A stretch of DNA of 64,000 bases from Minisyncoccota bacterium (GCA_040905385.1 JBBDRP010000002.1:595403-659402), one strand, 5' to 3'; shown: positions 695-29,560, numbered from the stretch's first letter. Notes: a model not told the origin generated them from the letters alone. Numbers and translations are program-made.

Positions 695-1621
695 TTATTC
701 CTGTGGAGTTGTCTCGGCTTCTGTTTCGGTTTCAATCTCAGACTCTTCTTCACCTTCAGCATCAGCTGCACCTTCTGTGGTTGGTGCTGACTGCGTCTGT
801 GTTGCCGGAGCCTGCTGCTGATTAATCTCAGCCGGGTAGCTTACGCCCTCAAGCAGTATCTCTATCTCGGCATTTTCACGTGCCTGATTTAGCAGATCAA
901 CGGCGATCTGTTGACGCTTCTGCTGAATAACTGCCTGCTCAATCTGCGGTCGCAGCTCTTCAAGTGATGGGGTCTGTACCTCCTGACCTTCTGGAGATGC
1001 CTGACCAATCTGTGCCGCATACTGCTGGTAAAGCTCATTAATTTCAGCCTCAGTAGCCGTGATTTCTCCACCGGCCTCCTGCTCGATATAGGCATTGATA
1101 AGAAGCTGGTTTCGTAGATCCTCTCGAACCTCCTCTTCAGTCACATCATTCTGCACCAGTCGATTCTCGAATTCATCGCGTCCAATCTGATCGATACTCG
1201 ACTGTAGCTGTGTCTCAACCTCTTCGTCACTGACTGTTACGCCGGCACCACGAGCTGCCTGAAGCTGTAGTTCGGTGTTTATGATTCCTTCCAGAAGCAC
1301 CTCCTGCTGATCTATATCAGAAAGATTATTAAACTGCTGTGCCTGTGGAGTATTCGCATTACGAAGACTTTGTAACTGTTCAGAGAGAACATCACCAGAA
1401 ATTTCTTCACCATTCACGATTGCTACCGGACCGCTTATATCACTTCCGCTTCCCACTTCAGACTGTGAAAAGTAGTATCCAGCCCCAACCAAGGCGGCTA
1501 CGATCACGACCGTTAAAATAGTACGCATAGCACCGCCACCGCCTGATTGACTCTCGGGCTTACTTTTACTCTGTGGTGCCTCCTGCTCATTTTGCTCTTC
1601 ATCTTTGCGTCGAATATCCAT
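695..1621 (-). CDS. Acidic periplasmic chaperone-like protein (SurA N-terminal/PpiD-like domain), N-terminal TM anchor
   Basis: TM segment TILTVVIVAALVGAGYY, then coiled acidic region with SurA-N-like pattern (NTELQLQAARGAGVTVSDEEVE...DLRNQLLINAYIEQ); start could instead be the internal MRTIL (1528). Confidence 0.4.
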   Translation of the reverse strand: MDIRRKDEEQNEQEAPQSKSKPESQSGGGGAMRTILTVVIVAALVGAGYYFSQSEVGSGSDISGPVAIVNGEEISGDVLSEQLQSLRNANTPQAQQFNNLSDIDQQEVLLEGIINTELQLQAARGAGVTVSDEEVETQLQSSIDQIGRDEFENRLVQNDVTEEEVREDLRNQLLINAYIEQEAGGEITATEAEINELYQQYAAQIGQASPEGQEVQTPSLEELRPQIEQAVIQQKRQQIAVDLLNQARENAEIEILLEGVSYPAEINQQQAPATQTQSAPTTEGAADAEGEEESEIETETEAETTPQE

Positions 1622-1950: not shown

Positions 1951-2499
1951 CTAGTCTAAAAACGATCGTAGTGTTGCAGTACTCTCATCCGAAAGCGAGC
2001 TCTTCTCATCAGCACCGGATGCCGCTACAGCAATGATTGTACTCAGCTCGCCGGACACATCATCGTCCTCCAATGTGATCGTGATCGGAAGATACGTAAT
2101 TTCTTCCTTGGATGTCAGCGGCATAATGCGATGCTGTGTAGAGCGCGGAAGTTGTAGCTGGGTATCACACGGAATCTCTCGTAGACTATCACCCTGCATG
2201 TACGCTAACGTAATCTCGGGATAATCACAGGAGTAAGAAAGAAATTTCATTCTCACCGAGGATGCCGGATCACTGACGCCAATAGTTACAGTTTCACGAT
2301 GTGAGGCATTGCGATTATCAATCCGCACCGACATTGTTTGTCGCTGAGCTTCATATGGCGTGGTAAGAGAAAAAAGATCCGCCATATATGGAGCAATGTG
2401 TATTGGCAGGACCAAACCACCGACCGCAATAATTGCTACCAGAAGAGTCAACTCACCAGCCGTCGACAAAACTTTCCGCTTTTTTCCTTCCTTTTTCAT
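1951..2499 (-). CDS. Hypothetical membrane-anchored protein (N-terminal TM, extracytoplasmic domain)
   Basis: K-rich N-terminus then TM helix LTLLVAIIAVGGLVL; divergent from the sortase gene. Confidence 0.4.
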   Translation of the reverse strand: MKKEGKKRKVLSTAGELTLLVAIIAVGGLVLPIHIAPYMADLFSLTTPYEAQRQTMSVRIDNRNASHRETVTIGVSDPASSVRMKFLSYSCDYPEITLAYMQGDSLREIPCDTQLQLPRSTQHRIMPLTSKEEITYLPITITLEDDDVSGELSTIIAVAASGADEKSSLSDESTATLRSFLD

Positions 2500-2600: not shown

Positions 2601-3281
2601 ATGACAGCAACTATACCGCGTACAGGTAAAACAACGGTGCCTTTTTGGCAGAACCGCTATCTCTACGCCTACACCGTAGCCGGGATGATGGCGATTTTAT
2701 ACCTACTCTTCTACTTTCTTGGTCTCGTACCAGTTGATTTTCGTTACGAGCCCAGCACACCAAGCCGTAGAAATACCCCCGCAGTGAGCGCTCAAAGCAC
2801 CACTACGATCGATAATCTTTCACCGGCCGTTCCGCAGAATGAGCAGGCTAGCCACATCACTATCGACAAAATCGGCGTTGATACCCCGATCATGAATCCC
2901 GTAAGTACCAATATCCAGACGCTCAACAACTACCTCTCCGAAGGAGCCGTCCGCTACCCCACCTCTGGCACACCCGGCGACGGAAATCTCTTCCTGTTCG
3001 GGCACAGCTCAGGTCTTTCCAACATCATCAATCAGGCCTACAAGGCCTTCAATAACATTGGTGAGCTCGAAAAAGGTGATACAATAAAAGTAGAAACGTT
3101 CTCTGGAACCTACTACTACTCCGTTATTGATGTCGAGCTACACAAGGATGCGGAAATCTTCGTCCCGTTTGATACGGGCAAGGATATGCTGACCCTGTCA
3201 ACCTGCAACAACTTCGGAGCCAAGGAGGACCGATTTGTCGTTCGGGCCAAGTTTACCAACTATGTACCTTACGTACAGTAG
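2601..3281 (+). CDS. Sortase family transpeptidase
   Basis: N-terminal TM; catalytic His in LFLFGHSSG, Cys in TLSTCNNFG (TLXTC), Arg in FVVRAKF. Confidence 0.75.
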   Translation: MTATIPRTGKTTVPFWQNRYLYAYTVAGMMAILYLLFYFLGLVPVDFRYEPSTPSRRNTPAVSAQSTTTIDNLSPAVPQNEQASHITIDKIGVDTPIMNPVSTNIQTLNNYLSEGAVRYPTSGTPGDGNLFLFGHSSGLSNIINQAYKAFNNIGELEKGDTIKVETFSGTYYYSVIDVELHKDAEIFVPFDTGKDMLTLSTCNNFGAKEDRFVVRAKFTNYVPYVQ

Positions 3282-3374
3282 TAACTTGAGATGTCATTAA
3301 ATAATTGACATATTATTAAATTAAGGTATTATTAGAAAGTATTAAAAGCCCAAAGTCAATTAATTACAAACATT

Positions 3375-5216
3375 ATGAATATGCAAGCAATCACAAAAAT
3401 TCTCAGGTTCATGGCTGTCCTCTCACTCATGTTCACACCATCAGTGGCAAGTGCCTGGGTAGACCCGGAAATCAGAGACTTTACTATTGATTGTGAGGTG
3501 GATGATAATGTCCAAGCTAATCTTTACAGTGTCACCTACTATAAGCTCACCAACGTTTCCACAGGTGACATCATTGTGGAATGGGAGGATCGAAATCAAC
3601 CAGAACATGATGAGCTACCGATTTCGTTCAATCTAGAAGACGGTGACTATCGTTTGTATGTTGAAAACTACGACGGTGACAGCATCCCCCCAAAGAACTT
3701 TACGGTTGATTGTGATAAGCCAGAACCTGAACTGGAAATCAAGCACCTGTGTGTTGGAACCAGTGCAAATAGTGGTGAGCTTGAGGTAACTGCCCCAAAT
3801 GGTCTTGACTGGTATGAGCTCTTCCGTACAGATACCACTCCAAATACATTGATCTCATCTAGTACAAACGTAACCGCAGGTGACATTAATGACCCTAAAT
3901 TTAAAAACCTTTCTGACGGAAACTACAGTTTTACAGGTACTCTTGGAACCAACTTCGAGACAGATACTACTATTGAATTCGATTGCTACGAAGAACCAGC
4001 ACTAGAACCTATCTCCTGCCCCTTTGATTCTAGTGACGGAACTGTAATTAACTTCAGCGAAAAAAATCGCGTCCGTGCTGACCTGGGTGAAAATGCTTCA
4101 CGAACTAACGTCGAAAGCGTCAATCTTCCTGCCGGTACCTACCGAGTACAGCTATTCGGATATGATCAGCATGAAAACCGCAGTAGTCAGACACAGCCTC
4201 GTGAGACATTCTTCCTCTCCTTGCTAAACAATGGAGTAGAAATCACGCAGACTCCTGAATTTGTTGGCTCTAGTAATCTTGGCGACCTAGAAGACGGAGT
4301 AAACTCTGCTCAGGATACCTTTGTAGTTAATAACTTTGCGGTACCTGAAGATATTGATGCTGTTGTAGGTATTAGTGCCCCGTATACTGACGGTGAAACA
4401 GACAATGCTAACAGCATCGATCTATGTGCCGCTTTTGAGTTAATAGAGGAAGAGCCACAAGATGACTTTACTGGACAGTGTGTAGTATCCCCACGCAACG
4501 TAGAGACTGGTGAAGATGTCACCTGGTCTGCAAGCGCCTCCGGTGGAGACGGAACATACACCTACAGCTGGGATCTTGAAGGCAGCAACGACGATGACGA
4601 TACTCGAGAAATTACTACTTCCTACAACAACGAGGGAACGTTTAATGGAACAGTAGAAATTTCAGATGGTGATCTCGTAATTCAGCGCACCTGCAGCATC
4701 CGTGTCGAAGATGAAGACGATAACGGTGGTGGAGGAGGTGGAGATCGACTAGATCCACGGGACCCTGATGATGACGGAGAAGTTCGCGGTGACCGCGACG
4801 TCTTCGGCGTCCAGTGTCTCCCTGAGAAGTCTGCCTACCTGGTTGGTGAGGTCGTAACCTTTAACGCCACTGTTGATGGTGACATCGACGAAGATGATGC
4901 CGACTTCAGCTGGAGCGGACACAGCTCACTTGACGAAGACGACGAGCGTGCGACCGCCCAGTACACCACAACCGGTATTAAAGAGGTAGAGGTAGAAGCC
5001 GAGTACGATGGCGATGTAGAGCGCGATACCTGTTTCGTACAGATTGCCGGCGCTGGTGTAACCCTCGACCAGGTGCCATACACCGGTCCTGGAGACACCG
5101 CCAAGACCCTTGGATTCATCATGACACTGGTGCTTCTATCTGGTATCGGAGCTCACACCATGATCCGACGCCGCGAGGACAGCATTCCGGTCGGAATCCC
5201 AAACAAGTCTAACTAA
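3375..5216 (+). CDS. Large secreted surface protein with PKD-like repeats and a C-terminal sortase-type sorting signal (VPYTG + TM + RRRED)
   Basis: Signal peptide MAVLSLMFTPSVASA; two PKD-like repeats (..GEDVTWSASASGGDGTYTYSWDLEG.., ..FNATVDGDIDEDDADFSWSG..); Gly8 linker; C-terminus QVPYTGPGDTAKTLGFIMTLVLLSGIGAHTMIRRRED. Confidence 0.6.
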   Translation: MNMQAITKILRFMAVLSLMFTPSVASAWVDPEIRDFTIDCEVDDNVQANLYSVTYYKLTNVSTGDIIVEWEDRNQPEHDELPISFNLEDGDYRLYVENYDGDSIPPKNFTVDCDKPEPELEIKHLCVGTSANSGELEVTAPNGLDWYELFRTDTTPNTLISSSTNVTAGDINDPKFKNLSDGNYSFTGTLGTNFETDTTIEFDCYEEPALEPISCPFDSSDGTVINFSEKNRVRADLGENASRTNVESVNLPAGTYRVQLFGYDQHENRSSQTQPRETFFLSLLNNGVEITQTPEFVGSSNLGDLEDGVNSAQDTFVVNNFAVPEDIDAVVGISAPYTDGETDNANSIDLCAAFELIEEEPQDDFTGQCVVSPRNVETGEDVTWSASASGGDGTYTYSWDLEGSNDDDDTREITTSYNNEGTFNGTVEISDGDLVIQRTCSIRVEDEDDNGGGGGGDRLDPRDPDDDGEVRGDRDVFGVQCLPEKSAYLVGEVVTFNATVDGDIDEDDADFSWSGHSSLDEDDERATAQYTTTGIKEVEVEAEYDGDVERDTCFVQIAGAGVTLDQVPYTGPGDTAKTLGFIMTLVLLSGIGAHTMIRRREDSIPVGIPNKSN

Positions 5217-5238
5217 CTCCTCCCCAACACAAAGACAG

Positions 5239-5270
5239 AAACACCCGGCTTTATAGCTGGGTGTTTTTTT
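5239..5270 (+). terminator. Intrinsic terminator after the surface-protein gene
   Basis: AACACCCGGCT-ttat-AGCTGGGTGTT followed by T7. Confidence 0.65.
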
Positions 5271-5884
5271 GTACCGAAGCAAAGAATATGGCATGTTACT
5301 ATTCTCATATGCATACCAAACGAAACTATCTTGTCCTGGCCGGGATTATCGCCTTCTTAGGCGCCTGGAGCCTGCTCCTGTGGCACTTTCCACCCCAAGA
5401 GATAGTTGACTACCTCGGTGTTGAAAATGGGCTGATTATCGCCTTTCTGGTCGCACTCTTTGGTGGCTTCTCTAGCTTTACCTCTGTGTCTTACTACAGC
5501 GTTATCGTCATCCTGGCTGCCGGTGGTGTGAATCCGATCCTGCTCGGAATCTGTACCGGGGTTGGCCTGACCTTTGGTGACTCACTAGTTTATTATCTGG
5601 GAACCCAGAGCCATGAAGTCCTTGAGGGCAGAATGCTCGAGTGGTCAAATCGTGTCTCTGCCTGGGTGAATGACCAACACGAGCGCATGGTGCAGCTTTT
5701 TGTATTTATCTACACCGGTCTCACACCACTGCCAAATGATCTTCTTACTGCCTCGCTCGGGCTGGCCACCTACTCATATCGACACTTCCTGCCGGCGCTG
5801 CTGCTGGGAAATATTACACTGGCGATTCTTCTAGCTGAGTTTTCCAACCTAGACTTTATAAAAACACTGCTTGGTGTCCAGTAA
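5261..5884 (+). CDS. DedA/VTT-domain family membrane protein
   Basis: Multi-TM with the G-rich VTT-like core (GGFSSFTSVSYYSVIVILAAGG...GDSLVYYLG); the true start is probably internal (MHTKRNYLV, ~5312). Confidence 0.45.
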   Translation: MFFCTEAKNMACYYSHMHTKRNYLVLAGIIAFLGAWSLLLWHFPPQEIVDYLGVENGLIIAFLVALFGGFSSFTSVSYYSVIVILAAGGVNPILLGICTGVGLTFGDSLVYYLGTQSHEVLEGRMLEWSNRVSAWVNDQHERMVQLFVFIYTGLTPLPNDLLTASLGLATYSYRHFLPALLLGNITLAILLAEFSNLDFIKTLLGVQ

Positions 5885-6454: not shown

Positions 6455-7105
6455 TTAGTACTGCGCTTCGGTTTCACCCTCAGTCTCGACCTCAACCTCA
6501 ACACCGGTTGCGGCGTCAGTCTCGTTGTCTACTTCTGCATCTGCGGACGTCGTAGCCGCTGTGTTGCTGTCTATCTCAACTTCTACCTCTGTGCCAGTTG
6601 CTGAATTCTCTTCAGTACCTGTTGTTTCGTTGGCAATCAAACGACAACCCTCAAAGACTACTTCTCCATCCTGTTCAATCACTGCCTCACCTTCCTGGCT
6701 TAGGAACGTGACATTGCCATCAGTAGATGAGTAGAGTGAGCCGTCGGCTCCTTCAACCTCGCTAAGTACCGCAACATCACCATTTGGTAGCGTTACCGAT
6801 GCTTCGCCGTCAACACTCATATCAGCCGTGATCTGCTCACCATCCTCACACCGAAATGTCTGCATATCCTCATCCATTTCTACCTGCTGTGTAGTTGTGG
6901 CTGAATCATTATCTTCTTCATCAGTATCTCCATTATTATTCGTAAGAAGTACTGCGCCACCACCAATTGCAATTGCCACAATAATAACGATAGCGATAGA
7001 GGAGATTCCATGATTTAGGTTCAAATTTCTATAATCCATAAACGTATATTTTAGGTTAAACATAATAATCTTAACTACGCTTCTCGACGCGGAGCGCATG
7101 TACAA
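6455..7105 (-). CDS. Secreted acidic low-complexity protein (N-terminal TM/signal)
   Basis: TM helix IAIVIIVAIAIGGGAVLL then a D/E/T-rich sequence. Confidence 0.4.
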   Translation of the reverse strand: MYMRSASRSVVKIIMFNLKYTFMDYRNLNLNHGISSIAIVIIVAIAIGGGAVLLTNNNGDTDEEDNDSATTTQQVEMDEDMQTFRCEDGEQITADMSVDGEASVTLPNGDVAVLSEVEGADGSLYSSTDGNVTFLSQEGEAVIEQDGEVVFEGCRLIANETTGTEENSATGTEVEVEIDSNTAATTSADAEVDNETDAATGVEVEVETEGETEAQY

Positions 7106-27781: not shown

Positions 27782-29560
27782 TTATCCGCTTGAATCTTTT
27801 GCTATATCCTTCAGGTCTTTCTTTATTGTTTTTTCAACTTTATCCAGATCCTTTTTTAATTTTTTGATAACCTCCTTCTCCTTTTTGGTGAACTTCTTCT
27901 TACCTTTAATACCCTCCAGACTCTCTAGTCGTTTCATTAACTTCTCCTTAAAGTCATCCAAAGATTCATGTAAGTCACCTTCTGTTTTTCGAAGATTTTT
28001 TCCTAATTGTTTCTTTATAAGTATAACTTTTCGCCAACCGTAGAACAGGATGATAATGAGAGCCAACAGCAGGGAAGCTATTATGATAAATGTTGTCAGT
28101 AGATCAATTGCCCAGTTACCAATTCTTACTATTGCGTGCTTCTCTACGATGATAGTAAGCTCTTTGCTCAACTCGCTCTTTGCTCCACGGCTATCAATAA
28201 CTCTCGCCTGCAGGCTGTAAACACCATCCTCCAATCCAGTATCAGAAACAAAGCTAAAGGAACCGTCGCTTTCTACAGTGACCTCGTGGTATTCCCCATC
28301 ACTTTCATCTTCTTCTTGTAGCTGAATCTCTACTTTCGAATCAGGATAATCAGTTTCTCCTTTGATGATAAATATCTCATCATTTCGAAGCGTACGAGGA
28401 TATTCAGTAATAACTGGTGCATTTAGTGGCTCAACCTCAAAATCTGCAGTATCTGCTATGGAGTTTCCGGCCTTATCAACCGCCCGCACTATCATAGTGT
28501 ATGCACCTGGCTCCAGGGCTTCGGTTTCATACCTGCCGCTTCCATCATCTCTCCATATTGACGAGTACTCATTGATGATCTGGATATCGTAATGATCTAT
28601 GCCTGAGGTTCCATCCTCAGCAGCGAAGATAAACGCTACTTTTGGGTCGGTCATGTCAGCTCTCTGTACCTCCTTAATTTCGAATCGACTTGGCTGTTCC
28701 GTGTCAATCTGGATTCGTGTATGAGAAATATCTCCCCATCCATACCCATTACGAAACTGCGCATGAAGATACCATGCTCCATCAGACAAATCTTCGATTA
28801 CTCTCTCGCTTATCGGTGGTGTGTGCTCTACTGATGGTACGCTCTCAGAAGAGTTATCTAAAAGTAAGCGGACAGATGTCACGCCGGAAGGTACGGACCA
28901 GGAAACATGAGCATCCTTCTCGGAGTACCACCCATTAGGGTCTGGATGAGACGAGGACGTAACATCTGGAGCGGCTGGTGTGTTCGCTGAAGGAGCGGGA
29001 GTAGGACTCGGTGTTGGTGTTGGAGTAGGGGTAGGTGTTGGTGTTGGGGTAGGACTAGCTTCGCCGAGCACAAAACGAGACGACCTCATTCCATCCAGAA
29101 TATTAGTCCCTTGTCCATCATTAGCAAGAACCGAACCACCGGAAAAATTAACTGCTGCTTCACCGGTAGACTTTACCCGAAAATTTAACGTTGCTATTTC
29201 ACCTCTATTACCCGAAAAACCCGGGTTCGGAATTACACCCTCGAAATTAACTGTTCCAGAAGTATTTGAAAATGCTGGTTCCTGAACCCAGAATGAAAGT
29301 ATTGAGTTCTGTCTTGAGATAGAGGTAATCTCAAGTAAATTCTGAGGAAAAGAGATTTCACCAGAAGCGGCGTTCATTGCCTGATCCAGGTTTGTTACAT
29401 CAATACTGACCGAAATATTGCTACCTACAGGATACGATCCTGATGACGGGCTTAGCTCCAGTGTGGCAGCATCAGCGGTCGTGAATGCCATTACAGCAAA
29501 GAGTATGCAGAATATTGTTAAAAACCCTCGAATTTTACTGATTACATCTGCCATATGCAC
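27782..29560 (-). CDS. Surface protein with an N-terminal cohesin-like domain, (PT)n linker, Ig/FN3-like domains, C-terminal TM and K-rich cytoplasmic tail
   Basis: Signal; cohesin-like block ...EISFPQNLLEITSISRQNSILSFWVQEPAFSNTSGTVNFEGVIPNPGFSGNRGEIATLNFRVKSTG...; PTPTPTPTPTPTPSPTPAP; TM IIIASLLLALIIILFYGW then a K/E-rich tail. Confidence 0.5.
   Translation of the reverse strand: MHMADVISKIRGFLTIFCILFAVMAFTTADAATLELSPSSGSYPVGSNISVSIDVTNLDQAMNAASGEISFPQNLLEITSISRQNSILSFWVQEPAFSNTSGTVNFEGVIPNPGFSGNRGEIATLNFRVKSTGEAAVNFSGGSVLANDGQGTNILDGMRSSRFVLGEASPTPTPTPTPTPTPTPSPTPAPSANTPAAPDVTSSSHPDPNGWYSEKDAHVSWSVPSGVTSVRLLLDNSSESVPSVEHTPPISERVIEDLSDGAWYLHAQFRNGYGWGDISHTRIQIDTEQPSRFEIKEVQRADMTDPKVAFIFAAEDGTSGIDHYDIQIINEYSSIWRDDGSGRYETEALEPGAYTMIVRAVDKAGNSIADTADFEVEPLNAPVITEYPRTLRNDEIFIIKGETDYPDSKVEIQLQEEDESDGEYHEVTVESDGSFSFVSDTGLEDGVYSLQARVIDSRGAKSELSKELTIIVEKHAIVRIGNWAIDLLTTFIIIASLLLALIIILFYGWRKVILIKKQLGKNLRKTEGDLHESLDDFKEKLMKRLESLEGIKGKKKFTKKEKEVIKKLKKDLDKVEKTIKKDLKDIAKDSSG
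28995..29060. repeat. GGTGTTGG-type simple tandem repeat encoding the (PT)n linker
   Basis: ggtgttggtgttggagtaggggtaggtgttggtgttggggtagg. Confidence 0.6.

What the first reader, a model, noticed from the sequence alone, without database searches (positions are those of the whole stretch)
2601..5276. Sortase with adjacent substrate bearing a non-canonical VPYTG sorting signal
The sortase (TLSTC, conserved His/Arg) is immediately followed by a 613-aa PKD-repeat surface protein. Its C-terminus is QVPYTG-PGDTAKT + hydrophobic helix + RRRED. That matches the sortase sorting-signal architecture but with VPYTG in place of LPXTG, and an unusually long 15-aa tail after the charged cluster. This suggests a lineage-specific sortase specificity.
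Basis: partly seen in the sequence, partly recalled or inferred. Interest (0 to 1): 0.5.

Follow-up and report, generated by a model that had tools for sequence, protein, structure and literature searches.

The report
Dedicated sortase with VPYTG-signal surface protein
An uncultured ultra-small bacterium (Paceibacterota) encodes a cell-surface protein next to its own attaching enzyme (sortase); the protein carries a VPYTG tag instead of the textbook LPXTG, and this pairing and tag recur across the whole bacterial group but match no curated family model that was searched.

Summary
Window 2601-3281 encodes a 226-aa membrane-anchored sortase: Pfam PF04203, His135/Cys202 (TLSTC)/Arg211, and a predicted sortase barrel. 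Window 3375-5216 encodes a 613-aa secreted, acidic protein built from a string of beta-sandwich domains, two of them PKD-like. It ends in VTLDQ-VPYTG, a 7-aa spacer, a 19-aa membrane segment and RRREDSIPVGIPNKSN.

Among 80 species-level genomes with a sortase of this clade, 58 encode exactly one protein with the same signal. All 58 are on the same strand, and 57 lie downstream. Only 9 of the 22 loci without one have 3 kb or more of downstream sequence. The consensus is V-Y-L-[SN]-Q-[VI]-P-Y-T-G, with Leu rare at the first motif position.

The reverse test also holds. Of 34 metagenome loci seeded from signal-bearing proteins, with 3 kb or more of upstream sequence, 33 contain this sortase clade.

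No NCBIfam sortase class model comes near its cut-off. No curated LPXTG-anchor model matches the signal.

The part after the membrane segment is conserved. In relatives it grows into a cytoplasmic domain of 76-344 aa with no known family match, which is unlike classical sorting signals.

Verdict: a new variant of a known kind. Cleavage and the attachment target are inferred, not shown.

The parts
2601..3281 (+). Sortase gene (226 aa), a type-II membrane-anchored cysteine transpeptidase of a Patescibacteria-specific clade
   Evidence: ORF. Pfam PF04203 E=1.5e-21. Generic TIGR01076 scores 41 bits against a 39.35 cut-off, and no class model passes. AlphaFold pLDDT is 81.6, and Foldseek matches class A, C, D and E sortases at E about 1e-10.
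2655..2720 (+). N-terminal membrane anchor of the sortase (about residues 19-40)
   Evidence: Predicted helix H19-40 in the model. The 19-residue window with the highest Kyte-Doolittle hydropathy starts at residue 25.
3003..3005 (+). Codon of catalytic His135 (FLFGHSS)
   Evidence: Invariant column in alignment A1. Coordinates.
3204..3206 (+). Codon of catalytic Cys202 (TLSTC)
   Evidence: Invariant column in alignment A1. Coordinates.
3231..3233 (+). Codon of catalytic Arg211 (EDRFVV)
   Evidence: Invariant column in alignment A1. Coordinates.
3305..3332 (+). Promoter-like site (TTGACA-16-TATTAT, 11 of 12 matches) in the 93-bp gap before the substrate gene
   Evidence: Consensus scan and the sequence itself. 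This is a consensus match only, and function is not shown.
3375..5216 (+). Substrate gene: a 613-aa secreted, very acidic surface protein (123 D+E against 36 K+R) built from several beta-sandwich domains
   Evidence: ORF. It is 100% identical to an NCBI 'PKD domain-containing protein' of a Candidatus Paceibacterota MAG. Composition. The model shows five beta-sandwich modules, and Foldseek gives only generic matches to Ig-domain arrays.
3375..3455 (+). Predicted Sec signal peptide (residues 1-27, ...SVASA|W)
   Evidence: Read directly from the sequence: K8 and R11, a hydrophobic core, and A-S-A. Helix 3-19 in the model. No signal-peptide predictor was available.
3462..4445 (+). Variable N-terminal beta-sandwich modules (residues about 30-357). 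The content of this region differs between close orthologues.
   Evidence: Alignment A2 shows insertions, deletions and domain swaps here, while the C-terminal 250 aa stay conserved (coverage pattern). Secondary structure.
4470..4709 (+). PKD domain 1 (residues about 366-445)
   Evidence: Pfam PF00801 E=6.6e-8 at residues 371-433. Model strands span 366-445.
4713..4802 (+). Disordered Gly/Asp-rich linker (residues 447-476) containing the invariant GDRD (RGD at 471-473)
   Evidence: pLDDT below 50 for residues 447-476. Invariant G453-G456 and G472-D475. RGD position.
4806..5045 (+). PKD-like domain 2 (residues about 478-557)
   Evidence: 32% identical to domain 1, E=1e-5. Model strands span 478-557. 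Pfam does not call it.
5058..5087 (+). Extended sorting motif V562-T-L-D-Q-V-P-Y-T-G571. The inferred scissile bond is T570|G571.
   Evidence: V562, L564 and V567-P572 are invariant in the orthologues. Family-wide consensus is V(50/59) Y(41/59) L(59/59) [SN] Q(52/59) [V40 I16 L3] P Y(48/59) T G. The same pattern appears in 140 independent library hits. The cleavage site is inferred from the general sortase mechanism.
5109..5165 (+). Hydrophobic membrane-spanning segment (L579-I597)
   Evidence: The 19-residue window with the highest hydropathy in the protein starts at residue 579. Model helix 575-590.
5166..5213 (+). Cytoplasmic tail RRREDSIPVGIPNKSN (16 aa) with a conserved PVGIP
   Evidence: P605-V-G-I-P609 is invariant in 8 orthologues, although the membrane segment itself varies.

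Best explanation
This is a dedicated sortase-substrate gene pair of Paceibacterota (CPR/Patescibacteria).

Proposed mechanism:
1. The 613-aa protein is exported by Sec through its N-terminal signal peptide.
2. It is held in the membrane by its C-terminal hydrophobic segment and basic tail.
3. This presents the juxtamembrane element V-T-L-D-Q-V-P-Y-T-G to the neighbouring, N-terminally anchored sortase.
4. Cys202, assisted by His135 and Arg211, cleaves between Thr570 and Gly571 and forms a thioacyl intermediate.
5. The intermediate is resolved by an amine nucleophile, most likely a peptidoglycan precursor. The acidic multi-Ig/PKD ectodomain becomes covalently fixed on the cell surface.
6. The fragment G571-N613, comprising the membrane segment and the conserved PVGIP tail, stays in the membrane.

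The specificity ([VI]-P-Y-T-G with an upstream V-x-L-x-Q extension) is a property of a whole Patescibacteria sortase clade that lies outside the curated classes.

Shown here: the domain identities, the catalytic residues, the signal architecture, the conservation of the motif, and reciprocal genomic coupling.

Inferred: cleavage, the scissile bond, the nucleophile, and surface display.
For: Enzyme:
- Pfam Sortase E=1.5e-21.
- The His/Cys/Arg triad is invariant in 22 relatives.
- The predicted sortase barrel matches solved class A, C, D and E sortases at E about 1e-10, and PDB sequence profiles match at 3e-14.

Signal:
- It has xPxTG, a 7-aa spacer, a 19-aa hydrophobic segment and RRR.
- It is the only such element in 64 kb.

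Coupling, starting from sortases:
- 58 of 80 species-level genome loci carry exactly one signal protein.
- All 58 are on the sortase strand, 57 are downstream, and 44 of those 57 lie within 300 bp.
- 13 of the 22 loci without a signal protein are truncated, with less than 3 kb downstream.

Coupling, starting from signal proteins of a different subfamily:
- 33 of 34 metagenome loci with 3 kb or more upstream carry a sortase of this clade, scoring 170-210 bits.

Motif:
- L at -3 in 59/59, V at -5 in 50/59, Q at -1 in 52/59 and Y at the X position in 48/59. None of these positions was imposed by the search pattern.
- The pattern is reproduced in 140 library hits: VPYTG 111, IPYTG 19, LPYTG 2.

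Synteny and inheritance:
- Sortase, substrate and VTT gene are kept in order in orthologous contigs.
- The pair is also kept in a distant genome with different neighbours.
- Elsewhere the neighbours are housekeeping genes (thrS, gyrB, dnaE, pheT), so the pair is inherited vertically.
- Motif variants (IPYTG, P[AD]TG) group with the sortase tree.
Against: - There is no biochemical evidence for cleavage in any CPR organism.
- Curated LPXTG-anchor models do not recognise the signal.
- The post-membrane tail is conserved (PVGIP invariant). In 26 of 62 relatives it is a cytoplasmic domain of 76-344 aa. That is unlike a disposable sorting signal. It could mean the membrane segment is a permanent anchor.
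- 9 of 67 loci with enough sequence have a sortase but no adjacent signal protein.
- The rest of the 784-kb genome could not be scanned, so 'one substrate' is shown only for 64 kb.
- The signal HMM was trained on the loci in which it was then counted. The metagenome and window tests are independent of that training.
Confidence: 0.7

Rival explanations
1. Bipartite or signalling reading. The sortase does cleave at VPYTG, but wall anchoring is not the only purpose. Cleavage splits the protein into a surface ectodomain and a functional membrane-plus-cytoplasmic remnant. That remnant is the conserved PVGIP tail here, and the 76-344-aa domains in relatives. It would report or regulate surface display, comparable to the C-peptide of streptococcal adhesins that signals to a histidine kinase.
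For: - The tail is more conserved than the membrane segment in the orthologues.
- Other subclades have their own conserved tail ends, FKxxNMxKKGxI and IDPFIxSQIxR.
- 22 loci carry conserved cytoplasmic modules A and/or B after the signal. These modules occur nowhere else in the loci or the window.
- There is a precedent for a signalling C-peptide (PMC11502775).
Against: - No partner is identified. The genes between sortase and substrate are not conserved, and no kinase or regulator lies consistently nearby.
- The cytoplasmic modules match no family of known function.
- The 16-aa tail of the window protein may only tune membrane retention.
Confidence: 0.2
2. Uncleaved type-I membrane protein. 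VPYTG plus the membrane segment is simply a conserved juxtamembrane region of a membrane-anchored surface protein. The neighbouring sortase acts on something else, or has another role.
For: - Many relatives carry large cytoplasmic domains after the membrane segment.
- LPXTG-anchor HMMs do not match.
- The tail is conserved.
Against: - P, T and G are invariant at the canonical spacing of about 6 aa before the membrane segment.
- Sortase and signal protein co-localise reciprocally: 58 of 67 and 33 of 34.
- No alternative candidate substrate is seen in any locus.
- A sortase without a substrate would be unexplained.
Confidence: 0.07
3. Pilus-type polymerisation. The sortase acts like a class C enzyme and joins copies of the substrate head-to-tail into a fibre through a lysine side chain.
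For: - V or I at motif position 1 resembles the pilin signals IPQTG and VPDTG (PMC5640630).
- The substrate is a string of Ig-like domains.
- Some relatives carry SpaA_2 or Cna_B-type domains typical of Gram-positive pilins.
- Each substrate has its own sortase.
Against: - No conserved pilin-motif lysine is present. The single PKN at residue 106 is not conserved in the orthologues.
- There are only 12 Lys in 613 aa.
- The sortase ends right after its last strand, so it has no C-terminal membrane helix. No lid segment is evident.
- The class C model scores 45.5 bits against a cut-off of 160.
- There is a single substrate gene, with no separate tip or base pilins.
Confidence: 0.03

Closest known systems
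Class D and class E sortases with their specialised substrates (e.g. Clostridium perfringens SrtD, PDB 4d70; Bacillus anthracis SrtC/D, PDB 2ln7; Streptomyces SrtE with LAXTG)
   Same: - They are the best sequence-profile matches: 4d70 at E=3e-14, and the NCBIfam SrtD and class E/D models are the top partial hits.
- They share the N-terminal membrane anchor, the single catalytic domain and the His/Cys/Arg triad.
- They likewise serve a small, specialised set of substrates with a variant pentapeptide (established knowledge of these classes).
   Different: - Scores are about 45-50 bits against class cut-offs of 140-165.
- Identity to solved structures is 18-26%, and class A, C, D and E match equally well by fold.
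- The clade has its own signature HS[ST]xxxxVxNQAYKxFN after the catalytic His.
- The motif is [VI]PYTG with an upstream VxLxQ, not LPxTA or LAxTG.
Pilin sorting signals of class C sortase systems (RrgB IPQTG, RrgC VPDTG, RrgA YPRTG of Streptococcus pneumoniae)
   Same: - Position 1 of the pentapeptide is a residue other than Leu (V or I), and it is read by a dedicated sortase encoded next to the substrate (PMC5640630).
- The substrates are Ig-like domain strings.
   Different: - There is no pilin-motif lysine, no lid, no C-terminal sortase anchor and no multi-pilin operon.
- Tyr at the X position and the VxLxQ extension are conserved across the clade.
Class GN ('marine') sortase TIGR03784 with its single partner protein in Proteobacteria
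   Same: - It has the same logic of one sortase with one adjacent dedicated target outside the classical Gram-positive phyla. This rests on my own knowledge of the TIGR03784 system.
- 19 of 22 clade members give weak hits to this model.
   Different: - The window protein gives only a weak match, 15.8 bits against a cut-off of 158.
- The motif, the substrate family and the phylum all differ.
C-peptide signalling after sortase A cleavage in Streptococcus gordonii (as cited in PMC11502775)
   Same: The membrane-embedded remnant left after cleavage has a function of its own. This offers a rationale for the conserved tails and domains seen here.
   Different: Nothing here shows a kinase partner. 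The remnants here can be full cytoplasmic domains of up to 344 aa, far larger than a C-peptide.

Membership tests
Sortase superfamily (Pfam PF04203 / TIGR01076; MEROPS C60) | Match to the sortase domain model above the curated cut-off | tested here: met
   PF04203 scores 76.9 bits against 26.6. TIGR01076 scores 41 bits against 39.35.
Sortase superfamily (Pfam PF04203 / TIGR01076; MEROPS C60) | Catalytic His, Cys (TLxTC) and Arg | tested here: met
   H135, C202 (TLSTC) and R211 are invariant in 22 sequences.
Sortase superfamily (Pfam PF04203 / TIGR01076; MEROPS C60) | Eight-stranded beta-barrel sortase fold | tested here: met
   The AlphaFold model has pLDDT 81.6. 136 PDB matches have E<=0.001, and all 50 listed matches are sortases.
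Sortase superfamily (Pfam PF04203 / TIGR01076; MEROPS C60) | Transpeptidase activity on a sorting signal | not testable with these tools
   Needs a peptide cleavage or ligation assay.
Curated sortase classes (NCBIfam models for classes C, D, E, F and GN, plus the LPxTATN-specific SrtD model) | Score at or above the class model cut-off | tested here: not met
   The best score for the window protein is 46.5 bits (SrtD, cut-off 140). Class C scores 45.5/160, class E 44.2/160, class D 43.7/165, class F 19.8/166 and class GN 15.8/158. The best E-value among 22 clade members is 5.7e-14. No class A or class B model appeared at E<=0.001.
Class C (pilus-polymerising) sortase system | Lid over the active site, a C-terminal membrane helix on the enzyme, and a pilin-motif Lys in the substrate | tested here: not met
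   The enzyme ends at residue 226, directly after the last strand. The linker at residues 53-69 is disordered, and no lid was recognised; this was judged by inspection only. No conserved YPKN-type lysine is present.
LPXTG cell-wall sorting signal (TIGR01167 / Pfam PF00746 Gram_pos_anchor) | Match to the curated anchor models | tested here: not met
   No hit appeared in Pfam or NCBIfam even at E<=10. The one exception is NF033073 LPXTG_double, at 12.6 bits against a cut-off of 48.
LPXTG cell-wall sorting signal (TIGR01167 / Pfam PF00746 Gram_pos_anchor) | Tripartite architecture: xPxTG pentapeptide, hydrophobic segment, positively charged tail at the C-terminus, plus an N-terminal signal peptide | tested here: met
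   VPYTG at 567-571, hydrophobic segment at 579-597, RRR at 598-600, and a signal peptide at 1-27 judged by inspection. The tail is 16 aa, longer than usual. In 26 of 62 relatives the element is internal rather than C-terminal.
LPXTG cell-wall sorting signal (TIGR01167 / Pfam PF00746 Gram_pos_anchor) | Leu at position 1 of the pentapeptide | tested here: not met
   The window has V. Across the family the counts are V 40, I 16, L 3 of 59, and in library hits VPYTG 111, IPYTG 19, LPYTG 2.
PKD domain proteins (Pfam PF00801) | PKD model above cut-off | tested here: met
   PF00801 scores 32.9 bits against 23.5 at residues 371-433. A second copy is found by internal homology.

The most novel reading that the evidence does not exclude
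The [VI]PYTG-plus-membrane-segment element is a Patescibacteria-wide module in which sortase cleavage produces two functional products. One is a wall-linked ectodomain. The other is a membrane-tethered cytoplasmic remnant: the conserved PVGIP tail here, and uncharacterised helical domains of 76-344 aa in relatives. Sortase processing would then double as a transmembrane signalling or assembly step, an arrangement not described for any sortase system.
Probability: 0.2. Interest if true: 0.75.

Novelty: new variant of a known kind. Interest (0 to 1): 0.55.

Why it matters
CPR/Patescibacteria are thought to live attached to other microbes, yet almost nothing is known about how their surface proteins are displayed. 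Earlier work noted only that more than half of CPR genomes contain a sortase family (PMC6744442).

This locus and its relatives define the following:
- A sortase clade outside the curated classes.
- Its likely recognition sequence, VxLxQ[VI]PYTG, which current LPXTG models miss. Such surface proteins are therefore not flagged as wall-anchored in annotations.
- A simple rule that the substrate is the next gene, which identifies the probable main sortase-displayed protein in each genome.

The variable N-terminal modules on a conserved stalk fit an adhesin under diversifying pressure. A Tyr-specific, extended-motif sortase could also be useful as an orthogonal ligation enzyme. The conserved cytoplasmic extensions raise a testable question about what happens to the remnant after cleavage.

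Tried and rejected
- Short-profile database search. A 46-aa profile of the signal run against the word-indexed 5.8-billion-protein database gave only 3 hits, because short queries collect few candidates. The exhaustive representative search replaced it.
- Literature. No paper in the held library mentions VPYTG or IPYTG in a sortase context. Searches for CPR plus sortase gave only general statements.
- Identity of the cytoplasmic modules in relatives. Pfam, NCBIfam and PDB sequence profiles gave nothing significant. There were only faint hints to clamp-loader lid regions (DnaX TIGR02397 E=0.022; RFC5 E=1.3). I do not claim this relationship.
- Third conserved component. Neighbours around the sortases are housekeeping genes. 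The genes between sortase and substrate in the metagenome loci do not form a conserved family.
- Specificity-determining residues. Sortase positions 203-204, next to Cys202, differ between the Tyr-motif and non-Tyr-motif groups (TCNT against TCDS). The comparison is confounded by phylogeny and is not used as evidence.
- Fold search of the substrate gave only generic Ig-array matches with low TM-scores.
- One top library hit, P0139, is a repetitive artefact-like sequence and was discarded.
- Rfam found no RNA elements in the window.


Full report
**What is in the window.** The window comes from a Candidatus Paceibacterota (CPR/Patescibacteria) metagenome-assembled genome. The substrate protein is 100% identical to an NCBI entry on a 784-kb contig.

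At 2601-3281 (+) lies a 226-aa ORF, and at 3375-5216 (+) a 613-aa ORF. The finding's end coordinate, 5276, runs 60 nt past the stop codon into the next gene. That gene is a VTT/DedA-domain membrane protein at 5261-5884.

**The enzyme.**
- The first ORF matches Pfam Sortase (E=1.5e-21) and just passes the generic TIGR01076 model.
- His135 (FGHS), Cys202 (TLSTC) and Arg211 are invariant in an alignment of 22 relatives sharing 37-74% identity.
- An N-terminal helix (residues 19-40) and a disordered linker precede a confidently predicted barrel (pLDDT 81.6).
- The barrel matches solved class A, C, D and E sortases about equally, at E about 1e-10 and 18-26% identity. PDB sequence profiles put a C. 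perfringens class D enzyme first, at 3e-14.
- No NCBIfam class model comes near its cut-off: 45 bits against 140-166. This holds for the window protein and for all 22 relatives.
- The clade has its own invariant stretch after the catalytic His, N144-x-A146-Y147-x-x-F150.

It is therefore a true sortase that belongs to none of the curated classes.

**The substrate.**
- By inspection, the second ORF has a signal peptide (residues 1-27).
- Three N-terminal beta-sandwich modules follow.
- Next come a Pfam-supported PKD domain (371-433), a disordered Gly/Asp linker, and a second PKD-like domain that is 32% identical to the first.
- The protein is very acidic and poor in lysine.
- It ends in GVTLDQ-VPYTG-PGDTAKT-(19 hydrophobic residues)-RRREDSIPVGIPNKSN.
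- The tail is 16 aa in total, with 11 aa after RRRED.
- In eleven orthologues the C-terminal 250 aa are conserved, while the N-terminal modules are swapped, inserted or deleted.
- Within the signal, V562, L564, V567-P572, K577, T578 and F581 are invariant. So is P605-V-G-I-P609 in the tail. The membrane segment between them varies.

**Is the pairing meaningful? Test 1, starting from sortases.** The order sortase, substrate, VTT gene is kept in orthologous contigs. A distant relative with different neighbours also has a sortase followed by an ...AQVPYTG protein.

I then scanned one genome per species (185,579 species) with the sortase alignment. This gave 271 relatives, of which the best 80 were kept. 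All 80 are from records labelled as Patescibacteria, or as uncultured bacteria with no further name.

Results for the 80 loci:
- 58 loci have exactly one ORF matching a signal HMM.
- All 58 are on the sortase strand.
- 57 are downstream, with a median gap of 52 nt, and 44 lie within 300 nt.
- Of the 22 loci without a match, 13 have less than 3 kb of downstream sequence.

The residues not imposed by my search pattern are strikingly conserved: L at -3 in 59/59, V at -5 in 50/59, Y at -4 in 41/59, Q at -1 in 52/59, and Y at the X position in 48/59. Position 1 is V 40, I 16 and L only 3.

**Test 2, starting from signals.** Among the listed hits the counts are VPYTG 111, IPYTG 19 and LPYTG 2, with L at -3 in 140/140.

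Most of these hits belong to a different family of about 300 aa. These proteins have low-complexity ectodomains, and about 60 aa follow the membrane segment.

Seeding a metagenome scan with that family gave 80 loci. Of the 34 loci with 3 kb or more of upstream sequence, 33 contain a sortase of the same clade on the same strand, scoring 170-210 bits.

The coupling therefore holds in both directions and across unrelated ectodomains. This is what a sorting signal, rather than a shared domain, predicts.

**Within the window.** The signal HMM hits only this ORF (60.6 bits; the next best scores 9.3). Another surface-type protein at 27782-29560 (Big_13 and Cohesin domains) lacks the signal. The enzyme therefore looks dedicated to one substrate, at least within these 64 kb.

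Elsewhere, the conserved neighbours of the pair are housekeeping genes: thrS, gyrB, dnaE and pheT. This points to a vertically inherited core feature rather than a mobile island. Motif variants (IPYTG; P[AD]TG) follow the sortase tree.

**Unexpected feature.** The part after the membrane segment is not the short, disposable tail of textbook signals. In the 62 signal proteins from the sortase loci it ranges from 4 to 344 aa.
- 26 of the 62 have 76 aa or more.
- They contain two conserved modules (A...LISxDAxxxI...EDGWLLLNKEKV; B: FVxWLxxGD...ELDxAYRxR...VDQSYxS..G.KLALMR). These modules occur only in these proteins.
- The modules match nothing in Pfam, NCBIfam or PDB sequences beyond faint clamp-loader-lid hints.
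- Short tails are also conserved within subclades: PVGIP here, FKxxNMxKKG in one subclade and IDPFIxSQIxR in another.

So either the remnant left after cleavage has a function of its own, or in some members the segment is a permanent anchor. A precedent exists for a functional post-cleavage C-peptide in streptococci (PMC11502775).

**Mechanism and rivals.**
- The best-supported model (0.70) is classical sortase chemistry with a clade-specific, extended recognition element and a single neighbouring substrate. Cleavage at T570|G571 and attachment to a wall precursor are inferred, not shown.
- The bipartite or signalling variant (0.20) keeps the cleavage but gives the remnant a role.
- An uncleaved membrane protein (0.07) is disfavoured by the invariant P, T and G at canonical spacing and by the reciprocal coupling.
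- Pilus polymerisation (0.03) is disfavoured. There is no conserved pilin lysine, no lid or C-terminal anchor on the enzyme, and only a single substrate gene.

**Comparison with what is known.**
- CPR genomes were already known to be rich in a sortase family (PMC6744442).
- V or I at position 1 is known from the pilin signals IPQTG and VPDTG (PMC5640630).
- I found three things neither in the curated model libraries nor in the searchable literature. These are the clade itself, its VxLxQ[VI]PYTG element with conserved Tyr, and the cytoplasmic extensions.

I therefore rate this a new variant of a known kind, of moderate interest (0.55). The finding would become more interesting if the remnant proves functional.

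**Limits.**
- The rest of this genome could not be scanned.
- The signal HMM was trained on the genome loci in which it was then counted. The window and metagenome tests are independent of that training.
- The signal peptide and the absence of a lid were judged by inspection.
- The promoter-like site at 3305-3332 is only a consensus match.

Noticed in passing
L013:7824-11039, L029:7670-10486, L033, L045, L063, L066, L076 and others (22 loci); also P0012: In many relatives the VPYTG-plus-membrane-segment element is internal. It is followed by 76-344 aa of conserved cytoplasmic sequence in two modules. Module A is about 70 aa and ends in EDGWLLLNKEKV. Module B is about 110 aa and contains ELDxAYRxR and VDQSYxS..G.KLALMR. 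These modules match no Pfam, NCBIfam or PDB family. The only hints are faint ones to clamp-loader lid regions.
   Followed up: partly
P0148-P0179 and L087-L166 (metagenome loci): There is an abundant family of proteins of about 300 aa. Each has a Tyr/Pro/Ser/Asn-rich low-complexity ectodomain, PYVSLSxVPYTGLDLGPVGT, a Trp-rich membrane segment, KRVQNK, and a tail of about 60 aa ending in IDPFIxSQIxR. The family sits 0.5-3.8 kb downstream of the same sortase clade, and three loci have two copies.
   Followed up: partly
window 5166-5213: The cytoplasmic tail motif P605-V-G-I-P609 is invariant in 8 orthologues, while the preceding membrane segment varies. A more distant homologue (L007) keeps VGIP, and P0134 has IGIP.
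   Followed up: partly
window 4713-4802: The Gly/Asp-rich disordered linker between the two PKD-like domains contains an invariant G-D-R-D. It reads as an RGD tripeptide (residues 471-473) in the window protein and in 6 of its 7 aligned orthologues.
   Followed up: no
window 3305-3332: A near-consensus sigma-70-type promoter-like site (TTGACA-16-TATTAT) lies between the sortase and the substrate gene. It suggests the substrate may be transcribed separately and strongly.
   Followed up: no
window 3462-4445 compared with P0002-P0011: The N-terminal beta-sandwich modules of the substrate are shuffled, duplicated or deleted between close orthologues, while the C-terminal 250 aa stay 80% identical. 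This is a pattern typical of adhesins under diversifying pressure.
   Followed up: partly
window 27782-29560 (-): A 592-aa protein with Big_13 and Cohesin-like domains is another probable surface protein, but it lacks the VPYTG signal.
   Followed up: no
window 6455-7105 (-) and 695-1621 (-): An MliC-like (lysozyme-inhibitor) domain protein and a SurA-N-like chaperone flank the sortase pair. Both neighbours are kept in the orthologous contig L001, and the SurA-like gene is also kept in L002 and L003.
   Followed up: no
window 1951-2499 (-): A 182-aa membrane protein with no family match is transcribed divergently from the sortase. It is conserved at that position in L001-L003 but not in distant loci.
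   Followed up: partly
sortase residues 203-204 (window 3207-3212): The two residues after the catalytic Cys differ between sortases paired with Tyr-motif substrates (mostly TC-N-T) and those paired with P[ADSEQ]TG substrates (mostly TC-D-S). The window enzyme has N-N. The comparison is not corrected for phylogeny.
   Followed up: partly
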